Part shown: piece by piece, positions 11,040 through 47,051 of the stretch
Layout of the letters: each line of letters opens with the position of its first letter
Numbering within the stretch: position 1 is the first letter of the stretch
NCBI RefSeq assembly: GCF_009914755.1
Contig: NC_060944.1
DNA length: 64,000 bases
DNA from: the human T2T-CHM13v2.0 reference genome, Homo sapiens
Direction: 5' to 3' (one strand)
Position numbers and translations under genes: made by a program
The notes under the pieces: model-generated
What the model saw: only the letters and a program-made list of their open reading frames with translations
What the model was told of the DNA's origin: nothing
Databases searched by the model: none

Positions 11040-14000
11040 TTTGGTATTTAAAGGTAAAGAATTACTTTACCTTATCTTATAGAAGGATAACAGCTAATAA
11101 ATTTAGAAAGAATGAAGGAATTTTAAAAATCAACACTTTGTGAATGCCAGTGACTTCTTCAGGGGAGAATGATCAGATGGTGTAAACACCACCACTAGGT
11201 GAAAGGCTGATGAGCAAGAGACCATCTATGGCTACCTAAGCACTCCACAGATCACTGCTAAATGCAAAGGGAAAAATGTACCTTTACAGAAAAGATCAAA
11301 TTTAGCATCACAACTAGTGATGTTTCCCATGTGTGCTGAGGATGAAGTACTCACACTAAAATGTTTAAACGGAATCTATTCAGACACTTAAAAGATTAAA
11401 CATCCGGTTCAGAAAATCAAGGCAGGGAACAAGTTAAACAATACCATGAGAAAACAGTAAGACAGATGTGGAGTATTCTATAACTAGCCTGCTCTCTTTG
11501 AAGAAATCAGAGTTATTAAGAAAAAAACAGCGTAAGGACTCTTCTAGACTGAGATTACAGACATAACAACTGCGATGAGTGAGGCTCAATGGAACTGTGG
11601 TTTTAAAAAAGAGCAACACTTTGGAGACAACTGGGTAGTCTCGATAGGCATTTGCTTCACAGCAGGCATCGTTACTCCCATTTTATAGACAGCATGTGGA
11701 AGCTGGGAACTGTGGGACAATTTGTTCAAGCTCTCATAGCCTGTTGTATGGCAGGGTCAAGATCAGAACACAGCGAAGAACCCACATGCTCTTTGGGGAT
11801 CACTGTCCACCTGGCACCACTTCTGCCCACTGCCTGAGCTGGCACTCCACACACCTGGGATACAACCAGTGTCCTGTTTCTGCCTTTGCCCCCAAAAGCC
11901 CATTGTCCACACAGTAGCCAGAAGGAGCGTGGGTTGGGGGGGCGGGGGCGGGCATTAAAAGCCAAGCCAGCCAGTGGCTCTCACCTGAGTTAGAAAAAGG
12001 CAACGTTTTTATAAAAACCAACGAGGCTCCACCATCCCCTCATCTCCTGCCACATACCCTTTCACACAATCCACTTCCTGTTCCTCTAACGCACCGGTCT
12101 TCTTACTGTTCCTCTAATGCACCGAGCAGGCTCCAGCCTCAGGGTCCTGCACTAGCTCTTCCCTCTGCCTGGATACTCTAGACAGCCCTGTAGCTCCCTC
12201 TCCAATGTCCTTTGAGTGAATGTTAAAATGCCATTTTTTTCAGAGGCCTTTTCCAATCACCCTCACGAAAAGCAGCCAACTTCCCTTCCCATCCCTCACT
12301 CTGCTTTAATCTCTCCAGCGCTTCTTACTACCTGATGTGCTCCATGGCCATACTATCAGTCTCCTCATGATAAGCAAAGCCCCACCAGATCAGGTCTTTG
12401 TCTATTTAGTTCACTAGCCATGTCCCTAGAGCCTGGCTTGCTGCTGTTGCTCAAAAAACATCTGCTGTGGGAAGGCAAAGGGACTTGTTGCAGCCCTGCC
12501 CAACAGTTACAGCCTGTGTGCCTCAAGACAGCACACGTCAGGGGAAGCCATCTGAGGCATCTCTGCTGAGGGTGAGCCTCCCTCCAGACATCAGATCACC
12601 AACCAAGAGATACCTAGCAAGGGAGTGGATGGAATAAAGCAGAGGAGAGGGGGGAACAAAGCTAAGGAAAAGCAAGGGGCTTGAGGGAGGCTGCAGCAAA
12701 GTGGCCACACCTGTCCCGGGAGCCTCAGCAGCCTTCCCAGTCAACCTCCTGAGGACATGAGGTTGAGGGGCTCCTGGTTTTTCTCAGTCAGAAACCGGGA
12801 GGCTATACCTGACTTAAACCTGATCCCAAGGACAAAATGTCCAGTTAGTTACTTTTTAAGAAGAAAAAAGAAAACATTCCTTCAATCCCCTTGGGGCTGC
12901 TCTCACAATGGCAGGCACACGGCCTGCTGAAGTAAGTAAAAGAGGTCTAAACCTAGCTGTGTGCCAGGACAAGCTAACAGTAAAGATGACGAAGCTACTG
13001 GAGGCAGCAGGGAGGCGCCATGAGAATTCCCTGGCTCCTAAAGGCACTTACTTGGCAGCTTACCTTTCCACCACCTCCCTCCCACCTCAATGCCTGTCAT
13101 GCTCCTAGGAGATGCTTAGCTGGTGATAGTGAACTTTGTATTTTCCCTCTGGTACCACAGAGGTAGTGCAGGCATTCCTTTGAGGCCTTGCTCATGCTGT
13201 GCTCTGCCAGAAGGTCACGGAAGTCACCAGAGGGACCCTTGAGAGTGACATCAAGGTGACTGACAGCCATTAGTGGCATTTAAAGCATCCATGTGGTAAA
13301 GGTCAGTCTGTGCTCTGCACACCTGTGATGGCTAAGGGGAGATTTTGGCCACCTTACTTCCACCCCTCTTTCTCTGGACCCGTGCCCAAATCAGCTGAGT
13401 GGACACCTGGCAAGAGCTGACTGGATCAAGAGTGTTCACCTTACTCAAACTCTCCTTCTCAGAGAAGTAACAATCAGAATCACAGCCAAGAAATCTGAGC
13501 CAGATACTCAAAAGAAGACAGAGAAGCTGGCCATGGGGAGGAGGGAGGGGGGAGGGGGGACGGGGGAGCATGCAGGGGACTTCCACCACCCACCAGTTGG
13601 GAGAAGCAGACAAACACAAATCTCTAACAGGAGACTACTGAGGCAGTCAGGCAGGAAACAAAACAAAACACAAAACAACAACCAAAAAACAGAGATGAGA
13701 ACTAGAGGCATCATGATTATTTCTTTTCCCTTCTTAGGACCCAGTGGGCTTCTGCCTTTGAAAACCCCTGGAACCTTTATAACCTCCACCTTCTGATCAT
13801 GTTCCCCCAAGATGGATTCTGTTCCCAGTGACTTAAAAGCCTTAACTGCTACAGATGAGATCTCCCAGTGCCTACCCACTCCTCTCACGCCCCCACAGGT
13901 CTCAAACAGGTTATTCCTGGGAGGCTGGTGACAAAGACCCACGGGAACAAAGCCACCAGCCTGCTCGAAAACAGTCTATTCTGTGAGCATGAGGCAGAGC

Positions 14001-16020: not shown

Positions 16021-16068
16021 CGGTGTAGTGCACCACGCAGGTCTGGCCGCGCTTGGGGAAGGTGCGCC
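16021..16068 (-). CDS. FKBP1A: FKBP1A coding exon 2 (48 nt), [17 protein letters not shown]; later exons lie left of the window
   Basis: ctcctcag|GGCGCACCTTCCCCAAGCGCGGCCAGACCTGCGTGGTGCACTACACCG|gtgagt; in frame with exon 1. Confidence 0.98.
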
Positions 16069-16086
16069 CTGAGGAGACAGAGACGG

Positions 16087-16148
16087 GCATGCTGAGCCGA
16101 TGCGCGCGGCGGCAGAGGTACTCCGAGCCGCCGCGCGCCACTACTCAC
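16087..16148 (-). ncRNA. MIR6869: MIR6869 tailed mirtron in the 80-nt FKBP1A intron 1
   Basis: Intron begins GTGAGTAGTGGCGCGCGGCGGC (5p arm, 16148-16127), which can pair with CGCCGCGCGCATCGGCTCAGC (16111-16091). Both match the recalled miR-6869-5p/3p sequences. Confidence 0.8.
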
Positions 16149-16185
16149 CGTCTCCTGGGGAGATGGTTTCCACCTGCACTCCCAT
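16149..16185 (-). CDS. FKBP1A: FKBP1A (FKBP12 peptidyl-prolyl isomerase) coding exon 1, MGVQVETISPGD-G
   Basis: Minus strand reads gccgccgccATGGGAGTGCAGGTGGAAACCATCTCCCCAGGAGACG|gtgagt: strong Kozak context, FKBP12 N-terminus, canonical donor at 16148. Confidence 0.98.
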
Positions 16186-16763
16186 GGCGGCGGCGGACGC
16201 TGAGCGGGCGGGCGGCGCGACGGGCGGCGTGGACCAACAGCGACCTGGCGGCGGTTCCACGGCTCTGCCTAGTACCTCGGCGCGTCGCCTGCGCACGCGC
16301 ACGCCCCCTCACGCCCAGCCCTGCGTGCGCGCCCCACACGGCGCGCGACGTCCCGGAAACCCAGGCCTCCGGAAGAGGGACCGGAAGCCCAGAAGCCCCG
16401 AGACCTCCGGAAGCCCGGAGGCCTCCGGATACAGCTGTGTTTGCCGGGTGACTTGCTTCGTTCTCCTGCCCTTCCTCTGTGCTTCCAGCCGGTTAAGCAT
16501 CTCCCTGCCCAAAGAATGGGAGTAATAATAGGGGGTCCGCCAGTCACTGACTGGGTGACTGTCATCAGGTTTCCACTTAGAAGCACACAGTTACTCATCC
16601 TGGGAAGAGCATGGTTCTGAGAAGACAGCGCACAGGTGGTGGTAGTATGTTAGTATTTTATAAGTGGCTCAAGGTTGTAAGTTCTGCTTTTCTTCACTGG
16701 AGGAGGAGTTGTCCAAATTCATTCACTCACCCATAGCTTACATGCATACATTCTTATTGAGCA

Positions 16764-38900: not shown

Positions 38901-40100
38901 GAAGCAAAATACATCTGCCTACTTTCTGATCCAGTAAATCTGCTTCTAGAAATATATTGAATGGAAATATTTGCATGAGACAGGGCAATGGAGGTGGGGG
39001 GAAGGGTTAGATTCCAATCAGTGTTGAAGCTGGAGCCACCAGGACTTGCCAAGGAATTGAGAGTATCCCCGTGTCTCTGACCCAGTCTCCTCACGGTTTC
39101 CCGGCTTCACTCTGCCACATCTAATCCATTTGCCATCGTGTAGCTGAGATGATCTTCTACAAATTCACCCTGACCATGCACCTCCCTGTAGAGCCTTCTA
39201 TGGTCCCCCACTGCCCTCAAAAGCCAGCATTCTTTTCCCTGGCATAGGAGATACTTTGATCTGGCCTCTCTGACTCATGCTCAGTCCTGTCCTGCAGCTC
39301 CCCTGACTCATTGCATTCCCTCTTGACACGAAGCCTGTGCAGATGCTGTTCCCTCAGCCTGGAAGACCTCAGTCTGGGTGACTCATGCTCACGCTTTAAG
39401 TCCCTGGTCAGACAGCACTTCTTCCGGGAAGCCAGCCTGACCTTCTCAGCAGGGTTCTAAGACCCATATTTCCTGCCTAATCACAGCCTTTTGCAAAAGT
39501 GGGTGGTAGTTGTCTCCTCACTGGCTAGGCACACAGTAGGGGCTCAGAGTGTGATTCCTCCAAGTAGAGGGGCTCCCTGTTGCCTCAGGACTAAGTCCAG
39601 ATTCTGCACCATGTTCAGGAGATCCTGTAGCGTCTGGCCTCTCCTGACCTCCCAGCCCTGGATCTAGCCCCCATCTCTCCACAACTTTCTTTATTCAGCC
39701 TGTTGGCTTTTAATAGTTCTTCTAACTCTCCTCATGGTCTTCTCTCAAGGCCTTTGTTGATGCTGTCTTCTCTGCCCAGACATGCCTCCTTCTTCCCATT
39801 TTCACCTGGGTACCTCCAACTCATCCTTCCCACTTCAGTTAAAACATCACCTCCTCCAGGAGGTTTCCCTGACTGCTGGGGCCAGGTGAAGGCCTCTGTT
39901 ATGACCTTTCCCATGGTACTCTGTGCCTCCTCCCTTCCAATGCACATCGTACTTTCATTTATTATTTTTTGCCTGTAATTACACCGGAATGTGAACCCCA
40001 TGAGGGCAGAGCAATTTATGTCTTGCTCACTGCTGAATAGTGCCTGGCACCTAGTAGGAGCTCAGGACATGTTTGTTGAATAAATGATTAATATCCCTCC

Positions 40101-40178
40101 TGAGAGACAAATGCAGGCATGTGGCTTGCCCAGTTGACCAGGGGCCTTTGTGAAGGGAACAGCAATTCTGGGCACCAA
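40101..40178 (-). pseudogene. Possible degraded MFSD2-family exon 10
   Basis: catgcag|LVPRIAVPF/QRPLV/LGKPHACICLS versus LSATLTIPIWQWFLTRFGKKTAVYVGIS; needs two frameshifts and the donor is lost; position is colinear with the other exons. Confidence 0.45.
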
Positions 40179-40687
40179 CTGCATGACAGGTACTCTCGAG
40201 ACCCCACTTATTCCTCACCATAGCCCCTTGTGATAAGTTTATCATCCTTATTCTACAGATGGGTAAACTGAGCTCCAAGAGGTGAAATAACATCTGTAGA
40301 ATCACTGCTGGTAAGTGGGGAGTCAGGATTTGAACCCAACTCTCTGGCCTTTGAAATTGGTTTCTTACTACAAAAAAGCACTGCCTCTTGGTGGTAAGAA
40401 ACCAACTGGTTTTTCCAGATGACCCTGGGAGCTAAGAAAACCAATGCTTCTTGCATGCCCGTTCTGCGCCAGACACTGACATGCTCATCTTGCTCAGGCT
40501 CACCACAGCGCTGTGCGGTGGGAATTAGAGGAGGAGCCTGAAGCCCTGAGAAGCAAAGCCACTTACCGAGATCACATAGCTGAGAAGAGCTGAGCCAGGA
40601 TTTACCCCAGGGTGTTCTGACTCCAAGGCTGGTGGGCTCAGGCAGGGTGGCTACACATTGGTGCCACCTCCCACTTCCTGGACATAC

Positions 40688-40770
40688 CAGAATGATGACA
40701 AGAGGCACTGGAAGCTCCCACCTAGGCCTGCAGGGTTACTACAGAAAAAGACAAAGATCCTTTGAGTCAT
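40688..40770 (-). pseudogene. MFSD2-family pseudogene exon, homolog of exon 9 (83 nt, 1-nt deletion)
   Basis: ttttctcacccag|MTQRIFVFFCSNPAGLGGSFQCL/(L)VIIL|gtatgt versus MFSD2A LVEGNFVLFCTYTLGFRNEFQNLLLAIM (28 codons). Confidence 0.8.
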
Positions 40771-41259
40771 CTGGGTGAGAAAAGGCAGGGAATGACAGGC
40801 ACAGTGTGGTGTGCTAGTGATGGCCTGTGCACAGATGGGGCTTTGCCAGTCCCTTTGCAGGGTGGAGATAACTGAACCTGGAGAGAGTATGGATTTGAAA
40901 CCCTGTCCCCAGCTTGCACAGGGCTGCAAATCACAGGGTTATACGTGTTTCCTGCCTTCCTGGTGTGAAAGTGGCTGAAGAGATTGTGAGGCCAGCCTCA
41001 GTTTTCCCATCCCAGAAGGGGAAGATGCCCTTAGAAGTTGCCCCTGCCCTTCTGGAGACCCTCTTGAGACTGCAAGATTGGCCTCAAGGAAGAGGTCATC
41101 AGGTCTTTGCCAATTGGTCCCTGGGGCCCAGAGAGGGGCAGAAACTAGCCCAAAGTCACACAGGGATGCTTGGCTGACCCAGAATTGGGGCAGGCTTTGG
41201 AATCCCCACCCAGTGCTCTTTTTGCTGCCTCAGGCTGCACTTATGCTACCCCCTTCCAC

Positions 41260-41362
41260 TTGGAAAGCCAAGGAGATGAACAAGAAGCCACTGAGTCTAG
41301 GGGTGATGGTGGAGGATGTGCTGGAGGCTGGGAAAGAGAGTAGTGAGGATGCTGCCAGGGAG
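41260..41362 (-). pseudogene. MFSD2-family pseudogene exon, homolog of exon 8 (TM7), frameshifted
   Basis: ctcctcag|...LFPSLQHILHHHP*/LSGFLFISLAFQ|gtg versus MFSD2A YFRGLRLVMSHGPYIKLITGFLFTSLAFM. Confidence 0.82.
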
Positions 41363-41385
41363 CTGAGGAGCCAGGGAGGGGAGGG

Positions 41386-42003
41386 CTGTCTTAGTTATGT
41401 CAGGTTGGGGTCTGCCACGCACCTGTCATCTCAGTCTCATGCTCTCATCTTGAAGGAACAGCACCCAGATTTTCCTTTAGGGAGTCCCCTCCCAACTGCC
41501 CCTAAGTCCACTCCCCATCCCCAGCTTCAAGGCTCAGCCCATCAGTAAACTTCATCTCCCTGGCTACAGTGATTGGTTTAGGCAGCGTCATATGACTCCA
41601 TTTGAGCAATGAGAGGCAGCTCTGGGATTGTTGCTGGAACCTCTGTGAAAGCAGAGGAAGCTGGAAAGGATGTAATACAGTAGCTGCTGATGATCATCTT
41701 GCCACCATAGGGGTAAGTCATCTGGCAAAGAGGTCAAGATAATGCTAGCAGGGTTGAGAGCCTGAGGCAAGGACAGATCCCTGAGGACACTGTCTGGACG
41801 TCTGACAATGGGTCATCCTGGCTGCCCTCTTTCCTAGCCTGCAGCACATCCTCCACCATCAGCCCTACATCCTGTTACTCAGGCACCCAACCATGCCGGA
41901 ACAGCTATGGAATTTCCAGTTTTGTGAACCAATATACTCTCCCTTTGGTTAAGGCAGTTTGAGTTGTGTTTCCATCATTTGCAATTAAAAGATTCCTGCT
42001 ACA
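41386..42003. mobile_element. MLT1J/K-like LTR carrying a foreign insertion
   Basis: ccctggctacagtgattggtttagg...tttgagttgtgtttccatcatttgcaattaaaagattcctg. Confidence 0.6.
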
Positions 42004-42609
42004 AAGCCCTCATGGATCTGCATTTTTTCTCCCAGGTCTCTTCTACCACTAGAGAGTTGTGGACTCTTGGCAAAGGAGTTAATAACACTACTCACAATTC
42101 ATGTCTTCATTCAATAAATATTATTCTTTACTTCATATGTTCCACGCTCTGGTTGTTTTGTGGGGAGCAAAAGAGAAGTTCCCATTTCTGTTTATGTTAG
42201 AAACAAAACAAGACAAAAAACAAATTAACAAGCAAATACATACTGATTATAAAATAATGTGATGTGAAGAAAAAAACTGCTAAGAAAGAATAATGAGGTA
42301 GGAGGGGGCTACTTGAGATCAGGTGGTCACGCTGAGAGTTGAGAGTGGAAAGGAGCAGCTGGGAAGGTGTCTGGGAGAAGGCTGTTCTAGGAGGCAGAAA
42401 CAACATGAACCAGAAGCTTGAGGAAAGACTGTTCACTAGAGGAACAGAAGGAAAACCAGGGAGGCTGGACAAGAACAGGGATGGGAAGCTGACTAGAGTG
42501 TAGAGAGAAAACTAGGAAGACCTCATAGGGCCTTGTGGGTTTGAGTGTAATTCAACCAAAGAAGCCACTGTTCTTGCCTCCTCTCTCATAGAAAGAGAAC
42601 TCCTGATTT

Positions 42610-44088
42610 ACTTATTTTTATTATTTTTTTAAACGGTTAACTTTTATTTTAGATACAGGGGCTACATGTACAGATTTGTTACATGGGTATGTGGCATGAT
42701 GCTGAGGTTTGGGGTATGGTTCCCATCATCTGGGTAGTAAGCATATAGTTTTTTCACCCACGCCCCTTCCTTATTTCTCTCCACCAGTAGTCCGCTGTGT
42801 CTACTGGAGTGTCTGTTGTTGCCATGTTTATGTTCATGTGTGTTGTTCCCATGTTTATGTCTGTGTGTGTTGTTCCCAATGTTTAACTCCCACTTATAAG
42901 TGAGAACATGTGGTATCTGGTTTTCTGTTCTTGCATTAATTTGCTTAGGATTATGGCCTCCAGATGCATGCATATTGCTGCAAAGGACACGATTTCATCC
43001 TATTTTATGGCTGCATAGTATTCCATGGTGTATATGTATCAAGTTTTCTTTATATAATCCACTACTGATGGCACCTAGGTTGATTCCATGTCTTTGTTAC
43101 TGTGAATAGTGTGGAAATAAAGATATGAGTGCATGTGTCCTTTTGATAGAATGATTTATTTTCCTTCAGGTATATACCCAGTAATGGGATTGCTGGGTTA
43201 AATGGTAGCTCCGTTTGTAGTTCTTTGAGAAATCTCCAAACTGCTTTCCACAGTGGCTGAACTAATTTACATTTCCACAAATGTAACAGAAAGGCCCAAA
43301 ATTAACAGTAGATAAGACTTTATTTCTCTCAGGGAGAAAAAAAAGTCAACGTATAAAGCAACTCTTTATAAGGGTTCTCTTTTCTTTGCAGCCTCGCCGG
43401 CATCTGTTGTTTCTGACTTTTAATAATAGCAATTCTGACTGGTGTGAGACGGTATCTCACTGTGGTTTTGGTTTGCATTTCTCTGATGATTGGTGATGAT
43501 GAATATTTTTTTCAAGTGTTTGTTGGCCACTTGTATTATCTTCTTTTGAGAAGTGTCTGCTCATGTTCTTTGTCCATTTTTTAATGGGGTTATTGTTTTT
43601 CTCTCATTTATTTGTTTGAGATCCTTATGGATTCTGGGTATTAGACCTTTGTTGGATGCAGAGTTTATGAGTATTTTCTCCCATTCTGTAGATTATCTGT
43701 TCATTCTGTTGAGAATTTCCTTTGCTGTGCAGGAGCTCTGTGGTTTAATTAGGTCCCATTTTTCAATTTTTGTTTTTGTTGCAATTGCTTTTGGGGACTC
43801 AGCCAAAACTTTTTTGTGAAGGCCAATGTCAAGAAGGGTACTTCCTAGGTTTTCTTCCAGGATTATTATAGTTTGAAGTCTTACATTTAAACCTTTAATC
43901 CATCTTGAGTTAATTATTGTATATGGTGAAAGGTAATGGTCCAGTTTTATTCTTCTGCATATAGCTAGCCAGTTATCCATCCCAGTACAATTTATTGAAT
44001 AGTGAGTCCTTTCCCCATTGCTTGTTTTCGCCTTGTCAAAGATCAGATGGTTTATAGGGTGTGGCTTTATCTCTGGGTTTTCTATTCT
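42610..44088 (-). mobile_element. L1MA/PB-type 3' fragment inserted in an MLT1 LTR
   Basis: ORF2 C-terminal peptide WKCKLVQPLWKAVWRFLKEL; TSD GAGAAC(T/C)CCTGATTT at 42595 and 44089. Confidence 0.9.
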
Positions 44089-44538
44089 GAGAACCCCTGA
44101 TTTATATTTAGGCACAGAGGACCTCTGATTATGGATACCATTTCCCAGACTCTCTTGCAGCTAGGTGTGCCATATGAGTAGATACTGGTCACTGGAATGT
44201 GAACAAGTGTGAAATGAGTAACATCAGGGTCCTTCCTGTAAAGAGCAGAGAAATACCCACTTTGTCCTCTTTTCTCCCTAGAATAGCTGGCATGCAGGGA
44301 TGAGCCAGAGCCATCTCAGACTGTGGCAGGAGGGCAACACCTTAGGAATGGCTGAGCAACAAGCCAGACAGAGCCTGAGCTCCCAACAGTTTCATGGAAG
44401 AGATGCTTCATAGGTTGACTTTTTTTCTCCCTGAGAGAAATAAAGTCTTATCTACTGTTAATTTTGGGCCTTTCTGTTAATGCAGCTGAAATTATATAGA
44501 GATGTTTAAAACTATGGGTTAGGATGAGACCACCCAGG

Positions 44539-45056
44539 ACAGTAGTCCTCAAACTGTGTTTTCGGGAGCTCTGAGAACTCTGAGTGTCATTGAGATGCTA
44601 TCAGGGGTCTGTGAGGTCAAAACTCTTTTCCTAATAATGCTAAGATGTGTGTACCTTTTACACTCTCATTCTCTCACCAGTGTATGGTGCAGCTTTCCAG
44701 GAGCTATGTGCATGGGATAGTGCAACACGGTGTATGCAGATGTGTATGCAGAAGTAGTATGAAAATCCAGCTGTCTTTTTTTAAAGCCAGACAATGCAGG
44801 GATTCACAAAAATGTAAAACAATGTACTCTTCTCACGAAATGCCTTTTGTTTGGAAATATGGTCAGTTTTGAAAACAGATTATATTTATGTTAACATGTA
44901 ATGCATTCACAATTTTAAAATTAATATTTTTAACTTTTCTCCATTTTACTAACATAAATATTAATAGATACAAACCCACTTAAAAAGCTCTTTCAGATCT
45001 TCAAGAATGTTTAAGCATACAAAGAAGCCCCGAGACCACAAGGGTGAGAACTACCA
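44539..45056. mobile_element. hAT-Charlie DNA transposon fragment
   Basis: cagtagtcctcaaact...ggggtctgtgaggtcaaaact...tgagaactac termini. Confidence 0.55.
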
Positions 45057-45167
45057 TCCTCCCCGCTCTCCGGATGCTCCCACAGCCTGGGCTCCCCAGT
45101 GCAGGTAGGGACTCCCCAGAGCATGAGACCACCCCTGCCTCTCTTGGCCCCATGACCCCCCTCTTAC

Positions 45168-45258
45168 CTAACTGTTCCTTCACCCCCAGAGCCAGCACCA
45201 AGCAGGAGATGCAGTACAGTGTGCCCAGGACCATGGCAGCCATCACATATGCCCTCCA
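45168..45258 (-). pseudogene. MFSD2-family pseudogene exon, homolog of exon 7 (TM6), still intact (91 nt)
   Basis: cctaac..ttcttgttccccag|WRAYVMAAMVLGTLYCISCLVLALGVKEQL-G|gtaaga versus MFSD2A QKAYLLAAGVIVCIYIICAVILILGVREQR-E; ungapped over 30 codons, phase 0 to 1. Confidence 0.9.
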
Positions 45259-46878
45259 CTGGGGAACAAGAAGTGCGTTAGGCTGATGTACTCCACTCCA
45301 CCTCCATACGTGTTTGTGCAGTGACACCAGCCTGGAGGGCCTTCTATCGCCATCTCCCTCCTCTGTAAATCCTACCCACTCTTTGAGTCTTGGCCCAAGG
45401 GCTGCTGTCTCTCTCTCTCTCAAATGATTTCTGTGTTCTCATTTGTCTCTGCCTTCTCTGGGAATCTTTGGTGCCACAGGGTAATCTCCTGTGTGTCACT
45501 CCTGACTTCCTAATTCATCTGCCATCTCCTTCCTTGAAAGCGGAAATAGTGACTTCTTCTGCTTCCCTACATTGCCTAATAACAATAACAACTACCATAA
45601 TAATACTTGCTAACAATTATTAAACAGTCACCATTATAATATTAGCTCATTTACTCCTTGCAACAGCTCTCTAAGGTGGGCTCTATGATATTAGCCTCAT
45701 TTTACAGATGAGAGGACTGAGGCTCAGAAAGGTTAAAGAACTGCCCAAGCCACACAGTTCAGAAATGGAGGCCAGCATATAAGCCAGTTCAACTCTGATT
45801 GGCGACTGCTAGAAATCAATGGAGTGATATGCACTTAGCACTGTGCCGGGGGGATAGAAAGTGCTCTACTACCCAGTAAGCATTTATTGAGCACCTACTA
45901 TGTGTCAGGCACTGCTAGGTGCTGTGGGTTCAGCTGTGAGCCAAGCAAAGTCCCTTCTCTCCTCGTGCTTGTAGGCTGTTCCTGCCTAAGCCTTCCCTCT
46001 GCTGTTCCCTCAGCTTGAAATGTTTTCCCCAGGTTCCCACATGGCTTGCTCCATCACCTCCTTTAGGTCTCTGCTCAAATATCACCTTATCAGTGAGGCT
46101 TCCTCTGACCTCACCACCTAAAATCTCAACTTGCTCTGCCCTTCCCTGCAGCACATCCTGCCCGATGCCTGCATGTGCTATGGGCCTCACTCACTCATGG
46201 GTAATATCTGTTTCCCCTGCAGGACGTCAGCTCTGTGAGGGTGGAAGATGTGTCTGTCTTTTCCCTGCTATAGCCTCTGGCACAGCATAGCACCTGGTAT
46301 ACAGTAGATGCTCAGAAACCATGTGCCAAATGGATGAATGAGCATGGTTGGTGGTGAAAATTGTTATGAGGAAGAATGAAGGTAGTCAAAGGGGATGGGG
46401 TCTGGGGGTCATCTTCCAGAGAGGGCGTAAGATTGGAGACCTGATTAGAGCGTGTGGTGGGGGGGAGTGGGGTCGGGGGGAATGTGTCATGTAAAGAACT
46501 GGGAGAAGTGTCTTCCAGGCAGAGGAAAAGCATGTGCAAAGGCCCTGTGGTGGGAGCATGCAAGGCATGTCTGAGAAACAGAAAAGAGGCTGGTGTAAGG
46601 GAGAAGGGTGGGAGGTGAGGGAGAAGGGCCGGGGGCCAGCTTGTCCAGGTCTTTCAGACCATGCTGAGGGATCTGACGTTTCCTGAGGGTGATGGGGAGC
46701 CATGGAGGAGTCTACAGACATTAGCTGTTATTACTATGTTTCAAGGGCCCACATGGGCCAGGCCCAGGTAGGCCGCCTTACACACACACACTCCCATTTG
46801 ATCTGTGTGTCCATGCTGCAGGCTTTCCTGTCCCCTTTTCACAGACAGGGAAGCAGAAGCCAGCAGGCCCCTCTTTAC

Positions 46879-47051
46879 TGTGTTCTCCAGAGAGTTGGTG
46901 AGCAGGAAGCTGCTGTTGCCATCAAGGGAGCCATTGTCCCATGAGCCATTGAACTCCACGGAGCCCTAGTTTATGCTGCTGTGGAAGTGGCTCCCCAGCT
47001 TTCCCTAGATGTGGGCTCCTACTAGCATGCTGACAGCTTCCATACCTATGC
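46879..47051 (-). pseudogene. MFSD2-family pseudogene exon, homolog of MFSD2A/B exon 6 (TM5 plus glycosylated loop), two in-frame stops
   Basis: ccgcag|GC ATA GGT ATG GAA...CTG GAG AAC ACA|gtaaag; peptide IGMEAVSMLVGAHI*GKLG..NGS..NGS..NSS..SLENT versus MFSD2A MTVEVLGTVLGTAIQGQIVG..SHRET; phase 1 to 0; TAG at 47007-47005 and 46968-46966. Confidence 0.85.

What the first reader, a model, noticed from the sequence alone, without database searches (positions are those of the whole stretch)
40101..47051. Dead MFSD2-family lipid transporter gene upstream of FKBP1A: candidate lost ohnolog ('MFSD2C')
Seen: four segments bounded by AG/GT (47051-46879, 45258-45168, 41362-41260, 40770-40688) and a weaker fifth (40178-40101), all on the minus strand and colinear. 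They translate to peptides matching MFSD2A/B exons 6-10 with matching splice phases, and carry two TAG stops plus frameshifts. Known: MFSD2A transports lysophosphatidylcholine-DHA, MFSD2B exports S1P, and MFSD2B lies upstream of and on the same strand as FKBP1B at 2p23. Inference: introns are retained, so this is not a retrocopy. It is divergent from both A and B and occupies the paralogous position beside FKBP1A, so it is probably a third whole-genome-duplication paralog lost in our lineage. It may be orthologous to MFSD2A-like genes of non-mammalian vertebrates. I do not recall an annotation here, but that needs checking.
Basis: partly seen in the sequence, partly recalled or inferred. Interest (0 to 1): 0.95.

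Follow-up and report, generated by a model that had tools for sequence, protein, structure and literature searches.

The report
Lost third lipid-transporter gene in humans
Four broken exons on human chromosome 20 are the remains of a third, unnamed member of the MFSD2 lipid-transporter family that is still intact in tree shrews, marsupials, birds, reptiles and fish, and that likely arose in an early vertebrate genome duplication and likely died near the origin of primates.

Summary
Four of the five segments are real; the fifth (40178-40101) is not. Exons 6-9 of a dead, intron-containing MFSD2 gene lie between NSFL1C and FKBP1A, with three stops, three frameshifts and a lost exon-8 acceptor. 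Exons 2-5 and 10-13 were not found, though the scan would have seen them. The remnant is 65% identical to a tree shrew protein but 31% and 28% to human MFSD2A and MFSD2B. It nests (100/97) in a third clade that follows the vertebrate species tree from gar to wombat; AU tests reject placing it in A or B. Synteny: SEP-gene, MFSD2, FKBP1 occur in the same order and strand on chr20 and chr2, and a turtle gene model fuses this paralog to FKBP1A. Among 120 listed hits the tree shrew was the only placental mammal. The intact proteins keep MFSD2A's cation-site aspartates but MFSD2B-like pocket residues, the outgroup state, so a cation-coupled lysolipid transporter is predicted. No description in print was found in ten searches; Ensembl and GENCODE tracks could not be checked.

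The parts
46879..47051 (-). Pseudo-exon 6, 173 nt, AG/GT intact, in frame, TAG stops at 47007-47005 and 46968-46966 (both at Gln in tree shrew)
   Evidence: tblastn E 1.4e-14 with tree shrew P0276; 124.5 bits
45168..45258 (-). Pseudo-exon 7, 91 nt as in MFSD2A and MFSD2B, no stop or indel; used exactly as an exon by predicted lncRNA LOC105372497
   Evidence: (87.7 bits); hub annotation
41260..41372 (-). Pseudo-exon 8, 113 nt against 122 in A and B. Acceptor lost (CT), 1-nt deletion near 41337, TAG at 41299-41297, 8-nt deletion next to it, weak GT donor
   Evidence: (61.8 bits)
40688..40770 (-). Pseudo-exon 9, 83 nt against 84, AG/GT intact, 1-nt deletion near 40701
   Evidence: E 8.7e-5; 57.7 bits
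41814..41882 (+). Inverted partial copy of exon 8. It shares the 1-nt deletion but keeps the 8 nt lost from the exon; 53 of 61 aligned bases match
   Evidence: I3; 49.3 bits
42608..44089 (-). Old interspersed repeat in intron 7, about 80-83% identical to its best other genomic copies; L1-like (family name recalled, not from a tool)
16021..16241 (-). FKBP1A exons 1-2, downstream neighbour on the same strand (ATG at 16185, 24.5 kb after exon 9); marks the paralogous block
   Evidence: hub annotation
40101..40178 (-).
   Evidence: no GT; 9.9 bits

Best explanation
This is an intron-containing unitary pseudogene, the surviving exons 6-9 of a third vertebrate MFSD2 gene ('MFSD2C'), which likely arose by whole-genome duplication and likely died in early primates. 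Shown: the exons, the lesions, the absence of the other exons, orthology to intact tree shrew, wombat, reptile, bird, amphibian and fish proteins, and a three-gene block (SEP-domain gene, MFSD2, FKBP1) repeated on chr20 and chr2. Inferred: the first duplication round split the C lineage from the A/B lineage and the second split A from B. The human copy then decayed neutrally, lost both ends, and makes no transporter; its exon-7 splice sites are merely reused by a predicted lncRNA. Predicted from residues only: the intact protein is a cation-coupled (Na+ or H+) lysolipid transporter (about 0.7). Its pocket resembles MFSD2B and the outgroups, so a phosphate-headed lysolipid such as S1P is my first guess (about 0.45), an LPC-type substrate next (0.3), other (0.25).
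For: Identity over exons 6-9: tree shrew 95/147, wombat 77/147, human A 44/142, human B 38/134. Trees: sister to tree shrew 100/97 and 99/97; C clade 100/100, ordered as fish, lungfish, tetrapods. AU tests reject A or B membership. The tree shrew isoforms skip blocks that end at MFSD2A exon boundaries. Synteny: intron-split SEP-domain genes at chr20 (-), chr2 (+) and chr8 (+). SEP to exon 7 is 31.1 kb on chr20 and 44.7 kb on chr2; exon 9 to the FKBP1 ATG is 24.5 and 27.3 kb; each block is on one strand. Green turtle model P0334 runs from this paralog into an FKBP whose two exons match human FKBP1A at 35/38 and 37/44, while the last exon matches FKBP1B at 32/42. An unnamed B-clade model P0144 starts with a SEP domain. 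Decay: 26 of 97 sites shared by tree shrew and wombat changed on the human branch, against 6 of 77 on the tree shrew branch; a simulation fits about 0.12 substitutions per site, and 0.05 is rejected at P = 0.001. Residues among 107 clade-C proteins: D93 104, D97 105, K436 101, R90 99; but Q309 107, Q312 106, L337 103.
Against: Direct synteny outside human rests on one fused turtle gene model; no non-human genome could be read. The searches that found the clade used profiles containing window fragments, which biases ranking though it cannot invent proteins. Non-mammalian A and B rows and all outgroups are unnamed representatives, and (A,B) monophyly was unresolved in the region-only tree. The date depends on my simulation model and on recalled primate branch lengths. 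No primate or tree shrew DNA was available. Function is inferred from residues only; no structure was obtained. In MFSD2A the E312Q change abolishes transport (PMC12871369 table), so LPC transport cannot be assumed. The ESM Atlas gave the tree shrew protein family-level hits only and did not separate the paralogs.
Confidence: 0.85

Rival explanations
1. Same dead ortholog, but the third paralog came from an ancient segmental duplication of the SEP-MFSD2-FKBP1 block rather than from whole-genome duplication.
For: Only three genes were shown colinear. No fourth copy or remnant was found in 140 kb downstream of the chr8 SEP gene. Outgroups are unnamed.
Against: The duplication predates the split of ray-finned fish and tetrapods. 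A third SEP paralog sits on chr8. The tree (C,(A,B)) matches the pairing 1p+2p versus 8q+20 known from syndecans SDC1/3 and SDC2/4 (recalled, not tested).
Confidence: 0.1
2. A decayed segmental copy of MFSD2A or MFSD2B made within mammals.
For: Same exon phases and the same 91-nt exon 7 as A and B. The top three PDB hits of exon 7 are MFSD2A.
Against: 31% and 28% identity to A and B against 65% to tree shrew. AU p = 1.9e-7 and 3.1e-5. A loop motif in exon 6 is shared with tree shrew alone.
Confidence: 0.01
3. The remnant has a present-day role: the lncRNA LOC105372497 keeps exon 7 under selection or encodes a one-helix micropeptide from it.
For: Exon 7 has no stop or indel, both splice sites are strong and used by the predicted lncRNA, and it scores above the simulated median (87.7 vs 56 bits, slightly different codon tables). 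A RefSeq enhancer lies at 39116-40315.
Against: In both annotated first-exon forms there is no ATG upstream in the exon-7 frame, and 32 ATGs precede it. The transcript starts in a masked repeat. It uses neither the exon-6 acceptor nor the exon-9 boundaries. The model is a prediction only.
Confidence: 0.05
4. The gene died later, within anthropoids or apes, and some primates still have it.
For: 7 of 8 splice dinucleotides survive and exon 7 is open.
Against: 26 of 97 conserved sites changed, which rejects 0.05 substitutions per site at P = 0.001. The inverted copy already carries a frameshift and has since diverged 8 of 61 bases. No primate protein was among the 120 listed hits.
Confidence: 0.07

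Closest known systems
MFSD2A (Na+-coupled LPC flippase, chr1)
   Same: Exon phases 6-9, Pfam MFS_2 in the intact orthologs, cation-site D93, D97, K436 plus R90, R186, F65, F66, D73, Y455 kept in clade C.
   Different: Separate clade; wombat C is 42% identical to the MFSD2A query. M309, E312, L333, M337 are Q, Q, V, L in C; E312Q abolishes MFSD2A activity (PMC12871369 table).
MFSD2B (S1P uniporter, chr2)
   Same: Same genomic slot between a SEP-domain gene and an FKBP1 gene; Q309, Q312, V333, L337 equivalents shared.
   Different: B has Gly at the D93 position, which makes it cation-independent; G91D makes it pH-dependent (PMC12871369 passages). Clade C has Asp there naturally, as do the outgroups.
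Unnamed 'lysophosphatidylcholine symporter 1-like' models, including carp and trout entries named si:ch211-224l10.4
   Same: These are the intact orthologs.
   Different: They carry automatic MFSD2A-type names, some with no '-like' (pigeon, duck, zebrafish, gar rows). No paper naming them was found.
Human unitary pseudogenes (Zhang 2010, PMC2864566; Mudge 2019, PMC6886504)
   Same: Disabled ortholog at the ancestral locus with no working copy.
   Different: Not found in the parts of those papers I searched. Only 4 of 14 exons remain, and no mouse ortholog turned up, which would explain why screens based on mouse miss it (inference).

Membership tests
MFSD2 family (as pseudogene) | Significant colinear similarity to MFSD2 exons | tested here: met
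MFSD2 family (as pseudogene) | Shared intron positions and phases | tested here: met
   173/91/113/83 nt against A 158/91/122/84, same phases once the deletions are counted
MFSD2 family (intact orthologs) | Full-length MFS_2 domain | tested here: met
   wombat profile positions 1-427 of 427; tree shrew isoform X2 28-427, with the missing exon 2 in isoform X3
MFSD2 family (intact orthologs) | 12-helix MFS fold by structure | not tested
MFSD2 family (intact orthologs) | Lysolipid transport activity | not testable with these tools
   needs an uptake or export assay
MFSD2A orthologs | Monophyly with MFSD2A; E312/M309/M337 | tested here: not met
   AU p = 1.9e-7; Q312 in 106 of 107
MFSD2B orthologs | Monophyly with MFSD2B; Gly at the D93 position | tested here: not met
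   AU p = 3.1e-5; Asp in 104 of 107
Unitary pseudogene | Disabling lesions | tested here: met
   3 stops, 3 frameshifts, 1 lost acceptor, exons 2-5 and 10-13 absent
Unitary pseudogene | No working copy elsewhere in the genome | tested here: met
   genome search with tree shrew P0362: 12 of 14 matches are MFSD2A, MFSD2B or this locus; the other two have E above 1
Unitary pseudogene | Working ortholog at the syntenic place in other species | tested here: inconclusive
   ortholog shown by tree; position shown only by one fused turtle model
Processed pseudogene | Introns absent | tested here: not met
   three introns of about 1.6, 3.8 and 0.5 kb at ancestral positions
2R ohnolog | Lies in a paralogous gene block | tested here: met
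   SEP-MFSD2-FKBP1, same order and strand on chr20 and chr2
2R ohnolog | Duplication dated between invertebrate chordates and jawed vertebrates | tested here: inconclusive
   older than bony vertebrates; outgroups and the deepest C row are unnamed

The most novel reading that the evidence does not exclude
Vertebrates have a third, unstudied MFSD2 lysolipid transporter that keeps the ancestral design: a two-aspartate cation site like MFSD2A with a pocket like MFSD2B. It moves a lysolipid in a way neither human paralog does, for example cation-driven S1P transport. It was lost independently at least four times in placental mammals (primates, Glires, Laurasiatheria, Atlantogenata) while the tree shrew, marsupials and most egg-laying vertebrates kept it.
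Probability: 0.3. Interest if true: 0.82.

Novelty: new member of a known kind. Interest (0 to 1): 0.64.

Why it matters
MFSD2A brings omega-3 lipids into the brain and MFSD2B exports S1P from blood cells. How one family came to have a Na+-driven importer and a passive exporter is open. A third paralog that keeps the outgroup residue set is a natural stand-in for the ancestor and can be assayed from tree shrew or zebrafish. It also adds an apparently unlisted human gene loss, suggests repeated loss in placental mammals, and shows that bird, reptile and fish proteins named as MFSD2A in databases are sometimes this other gene.

Tried and rejected
Exon 6 alone: PDB search gave only chance hits, and the word-indexed search found no candidate. 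Weak hit at 25004-24969 to the end of exon 12: not among the top exon-12 places, treated as chance. DNA-level candidates for exons 2 and 4 at 50-51 kb and 63 kb: not supported. Exons 10-13 in the 10 kb below the window: 15-18.5 bits, none. Fourth paralog remnant on chr8: no tblastn hit at E 0.05 with 11 queries in 140 kb. Micropeptide from the lncRNA: no in-frame ATG. ESM Atlas: family-level hits only. No structure model and no earlier scan findings were obtained, so fold and pocket geometry are open. Literature: ten searches listed no paper on a third MFSD2 paralog or this pseudogene; most listed papers were judged from listing and abstract only. Supplements of PMC3296468 could not be read, files 1 and 8 of PMC6886504 were not searched, and only one supplementary file of PMC13450315 was held; these may bear on novelty. 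Rows left out: 117 of the 120 MFSD2A proteins, proteins outside 440-600 aa and the fused turtle model (107 of 117 kept); trees used 46 and 25 hand-picked rows.
Full report
1. Observation. The five segments were read and translated. Four are flanked by AG and GT as stated; the fifth ends in GG. Exon 7 alone returns human, chicken and mouse MFSD2A as its top three PDB hits, weakly (E 0.019-0.11). I fetched human MFSD2A and MFSD2B from the genome and fixed their exons; the joined MFSD2A reading frame matched a database MFSD2A at 525 of 530 residues. Exon 10 did not find the fifth segment.

2. Finding the ortholog. A profile of two MFSD2A proteins and three window fragments was run over 1.84 billion representatives. 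Scored against five window peptides, a set of proteins beat both human paralogs: 321, 308 and 291, against 202 for A and 159 for B. A second profile, from one of these plus five window fragments, named the set (156 hits, best 120 listed). It holds geckos, lizards, tuatara, turtles, non-passerine birds, salamanders, lungfish, gar, bowfin and teleosts (carp and trout entries named si:ch211-224l10.4), wombat (a cluster of 10) and the tree shrew Tupaia chinensis (2 rows). No other placental mammal is listed. The tree shrew shares 27 of 243 query words and zebrafish, with 10, was still found, so the search had power. The 36 unlisted hits scored below 147 bits, against 237 for tree shrew. Absence from an annotation database is still not proof of loss, and the tree shrew cluster has 3 members that I could not see.

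3. Anatomy. The tree shrew protein hits exon 6 at E 1.4e-14, exon 7 at 1e-8 and exon 9 at 8.7e-5. A frameshift-aware scan of both strands gave exons 6-9 124.5, 87.7, 61.8 and 57.7 bits. Exons 2-5 and 10-13 gave at most 26.1, within the reversed-sequence range of 18.6-33.6. So both ends of the gene are deleted, not just hidden; exons 1 and 14 were not scanned because they are short and variable. Lesions: TAG at 47007-47005, 46968-46966 and 41299-41297; 1-nt and 8-nt deletions in exon 8; a 1-nt deletion in exon 9; exon-8 acceptor lost. The deletions are placed by comparison with the tree shrew protein, not its DNA. An inverted partial copy of exon 8 at 41814-41882 shares the 1-nt deletion but keeps the 8 bases, so the gene was already broken when it was copied. 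The two copies differ at 8 of 61 bases. A genome search with the tree shrew protein found no further copy.

4. Phylogeny. In a 46-row tree the remnant is sister to tree shrew (100/97), then wombat (100/100), inside a clade (100/100) that branches as one unnamed deep row, ray-finned fish, lungfish, tetrapods. That clade is sister to A+B (99/98). A 25-row tree on exons 6-9 only, with a mixture model, gives the same placement (99/97) but leaves A, B and C unresolved. AU tests reject remnant+A (p 1.9e-7) and remnant+B (p 3.1e-5). Identities: tree shrew 95/147, wombat 77/147, A 44/142, B 38/134.

5. Synteny. FKBP1B starts 27.3 kb after MFSD2B exon 9 on the same strand; FKBP1A starts 24.5 kb after the remnant's exon 9. 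Intron-split SEP-domain genes lie upstream on both: chr20 minus (NSFL1C by the hub annotation) and chr2 plus, with a third on chr8 (the names UBXN2A and UBXN2B are recalled). A green turtle model runs from this paralog into an FKBP domain closer to FKBP1A than FKBP1B, which is the human order and strand. An unnamed B-clade model begins with a SEP domain closest to the chr2 gene. No remnant lies in 140 kb after the chr8 SEP gene. The tree (C,(A,B)) fits the recalled pairing of 1p with 2p and 8q with 20 in this paralogon.

6. Date. On the human branch 26 of 97 sites shared by tree shrew and wombat changed; on the tree shrew branch 6 of 77 did. Neutral simulation fits about 0.12 substitutions per site, with 0.08-0.15 comfortable, 0.05 rejected at P 0.001 and 0.22 at P 0.004. 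Recalled human branch lengths are about 0.05-0.06 to the anthropoid ancestor and 0.13-0.15 to the tree shrew split. That puts death before anthropoids, near the primate stem. This depends on the model. The short tree shrew branch argues that its gene is under selection.

7. How the intact protein likely works. Human numbering, 107 clade-C proteins: R90 99, D93 104, D97 105, R186 105, K436 101; position 309 Q in 107, 312 Q in 106, 333 V in 102, 337 L in 103. Thirteen outgroup rows (one more grouped with A) all have both aspartates and 12 have Q312, so E312 looks derived in A and the Gly derived in B. From passages and a table of PMC12871369: E312Q abolishes MFSD2A activity, MFSD2B needs no cation, and its G91D mutant becomes pH-dependent. 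Passages of PMC10013850 name D93, D97 and K436 as the sodium site. Clade C therefore resembles MFSD2B-G91D at these positions, and I predict cation-coupled lysolipid transport. Substrate and direction are untested. The human remnant makes no such protein; the predicted lncRNA reuses exon 7 with no in-frame start.

8. Novelty. RefSeq lists only a predicted lncRNA here (hub annotation). 'mfsd2c' and 'ch211-224l10.4' occur in 0 papers. Eight other searches listed nothing on a third paralog (listings and abstracts). Term searches: PMC13450315 main text and one supplement, none; PMC2864566 main text, no MFSD term; PMC3296468 main text, none, supplements unreadable; PMC6886504 passages and supplements, with no MFSD2 term, no chr20 term in the table of 44 unitary pseudogenes, and none of 54 chr20 places in table S1 near this locus, two files unsearched; PMC9546575 and PMC12338730 passages mention only A and B. 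The library lacks most subscription journals, and GENCODE, Ensembl and ZFIN could not be checked. The intact proteins are already in public databases under automatic names, so the clade may be visible in gene trees.

9. Verdict. It is a new member of known kinds (MFSD2 family, unitary pseudogene), not a new kind of system. Interest 0.64, because it points to an unstudied transporter that makes the evolution of LPC versus S1P transport testable.

Noticed in passing
window 43284-43366 and 44398-44479: An 83-nt inverted copy of nearby sequence interrupts the old L1-like repeat; 60 nt are perfectly complementary. It looks like a young templated insertion or gene conversion, and the arms could allow a 1-kb inversion.
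   Followed up: partly
window 41814-41882: A second short inverted local copy within 2 kb, this one of exon 8, preserving bases lost from the exon. Two such events so close together are unexplained.
   Followed up: yes
L004+L005, offsets 12721-12786 (chr2 about 24,054,720): An extra copy of MFSD2B exon 9 lies in intron 6 of human MFSD2B, upstream of the real exon 9.
   Followed up: no
proteins P0300, P0332, P0358, P0377: Pigeon, duck, gar and zebrafish clade-C proteins are named 'sodium-dependent lysophosphatidylcholine symporter 1' without '-like', so they can be mistaken for MFSD2A.
   Followed up: partly
one search list: No chicken, passerine, crocodilian, snake, frog or monotreme appears among the 120 listed hits; further losses are possible, but 36 hits were not shown.
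   Followed up: no
protein P0131: An unnamed long-branch representative groups with MFSD2A (99/94) and lacks the usual cation-site residues; it may be a divergent A copy or a further paralog.
   Followed up: no
   Followed up: no
L007 minus strand: A 626-codon open frame lies antisense between MFSD2B and FKBP1B (WDCP by recall); the chr20 block has no annotated counterpart.
   Followed up: no
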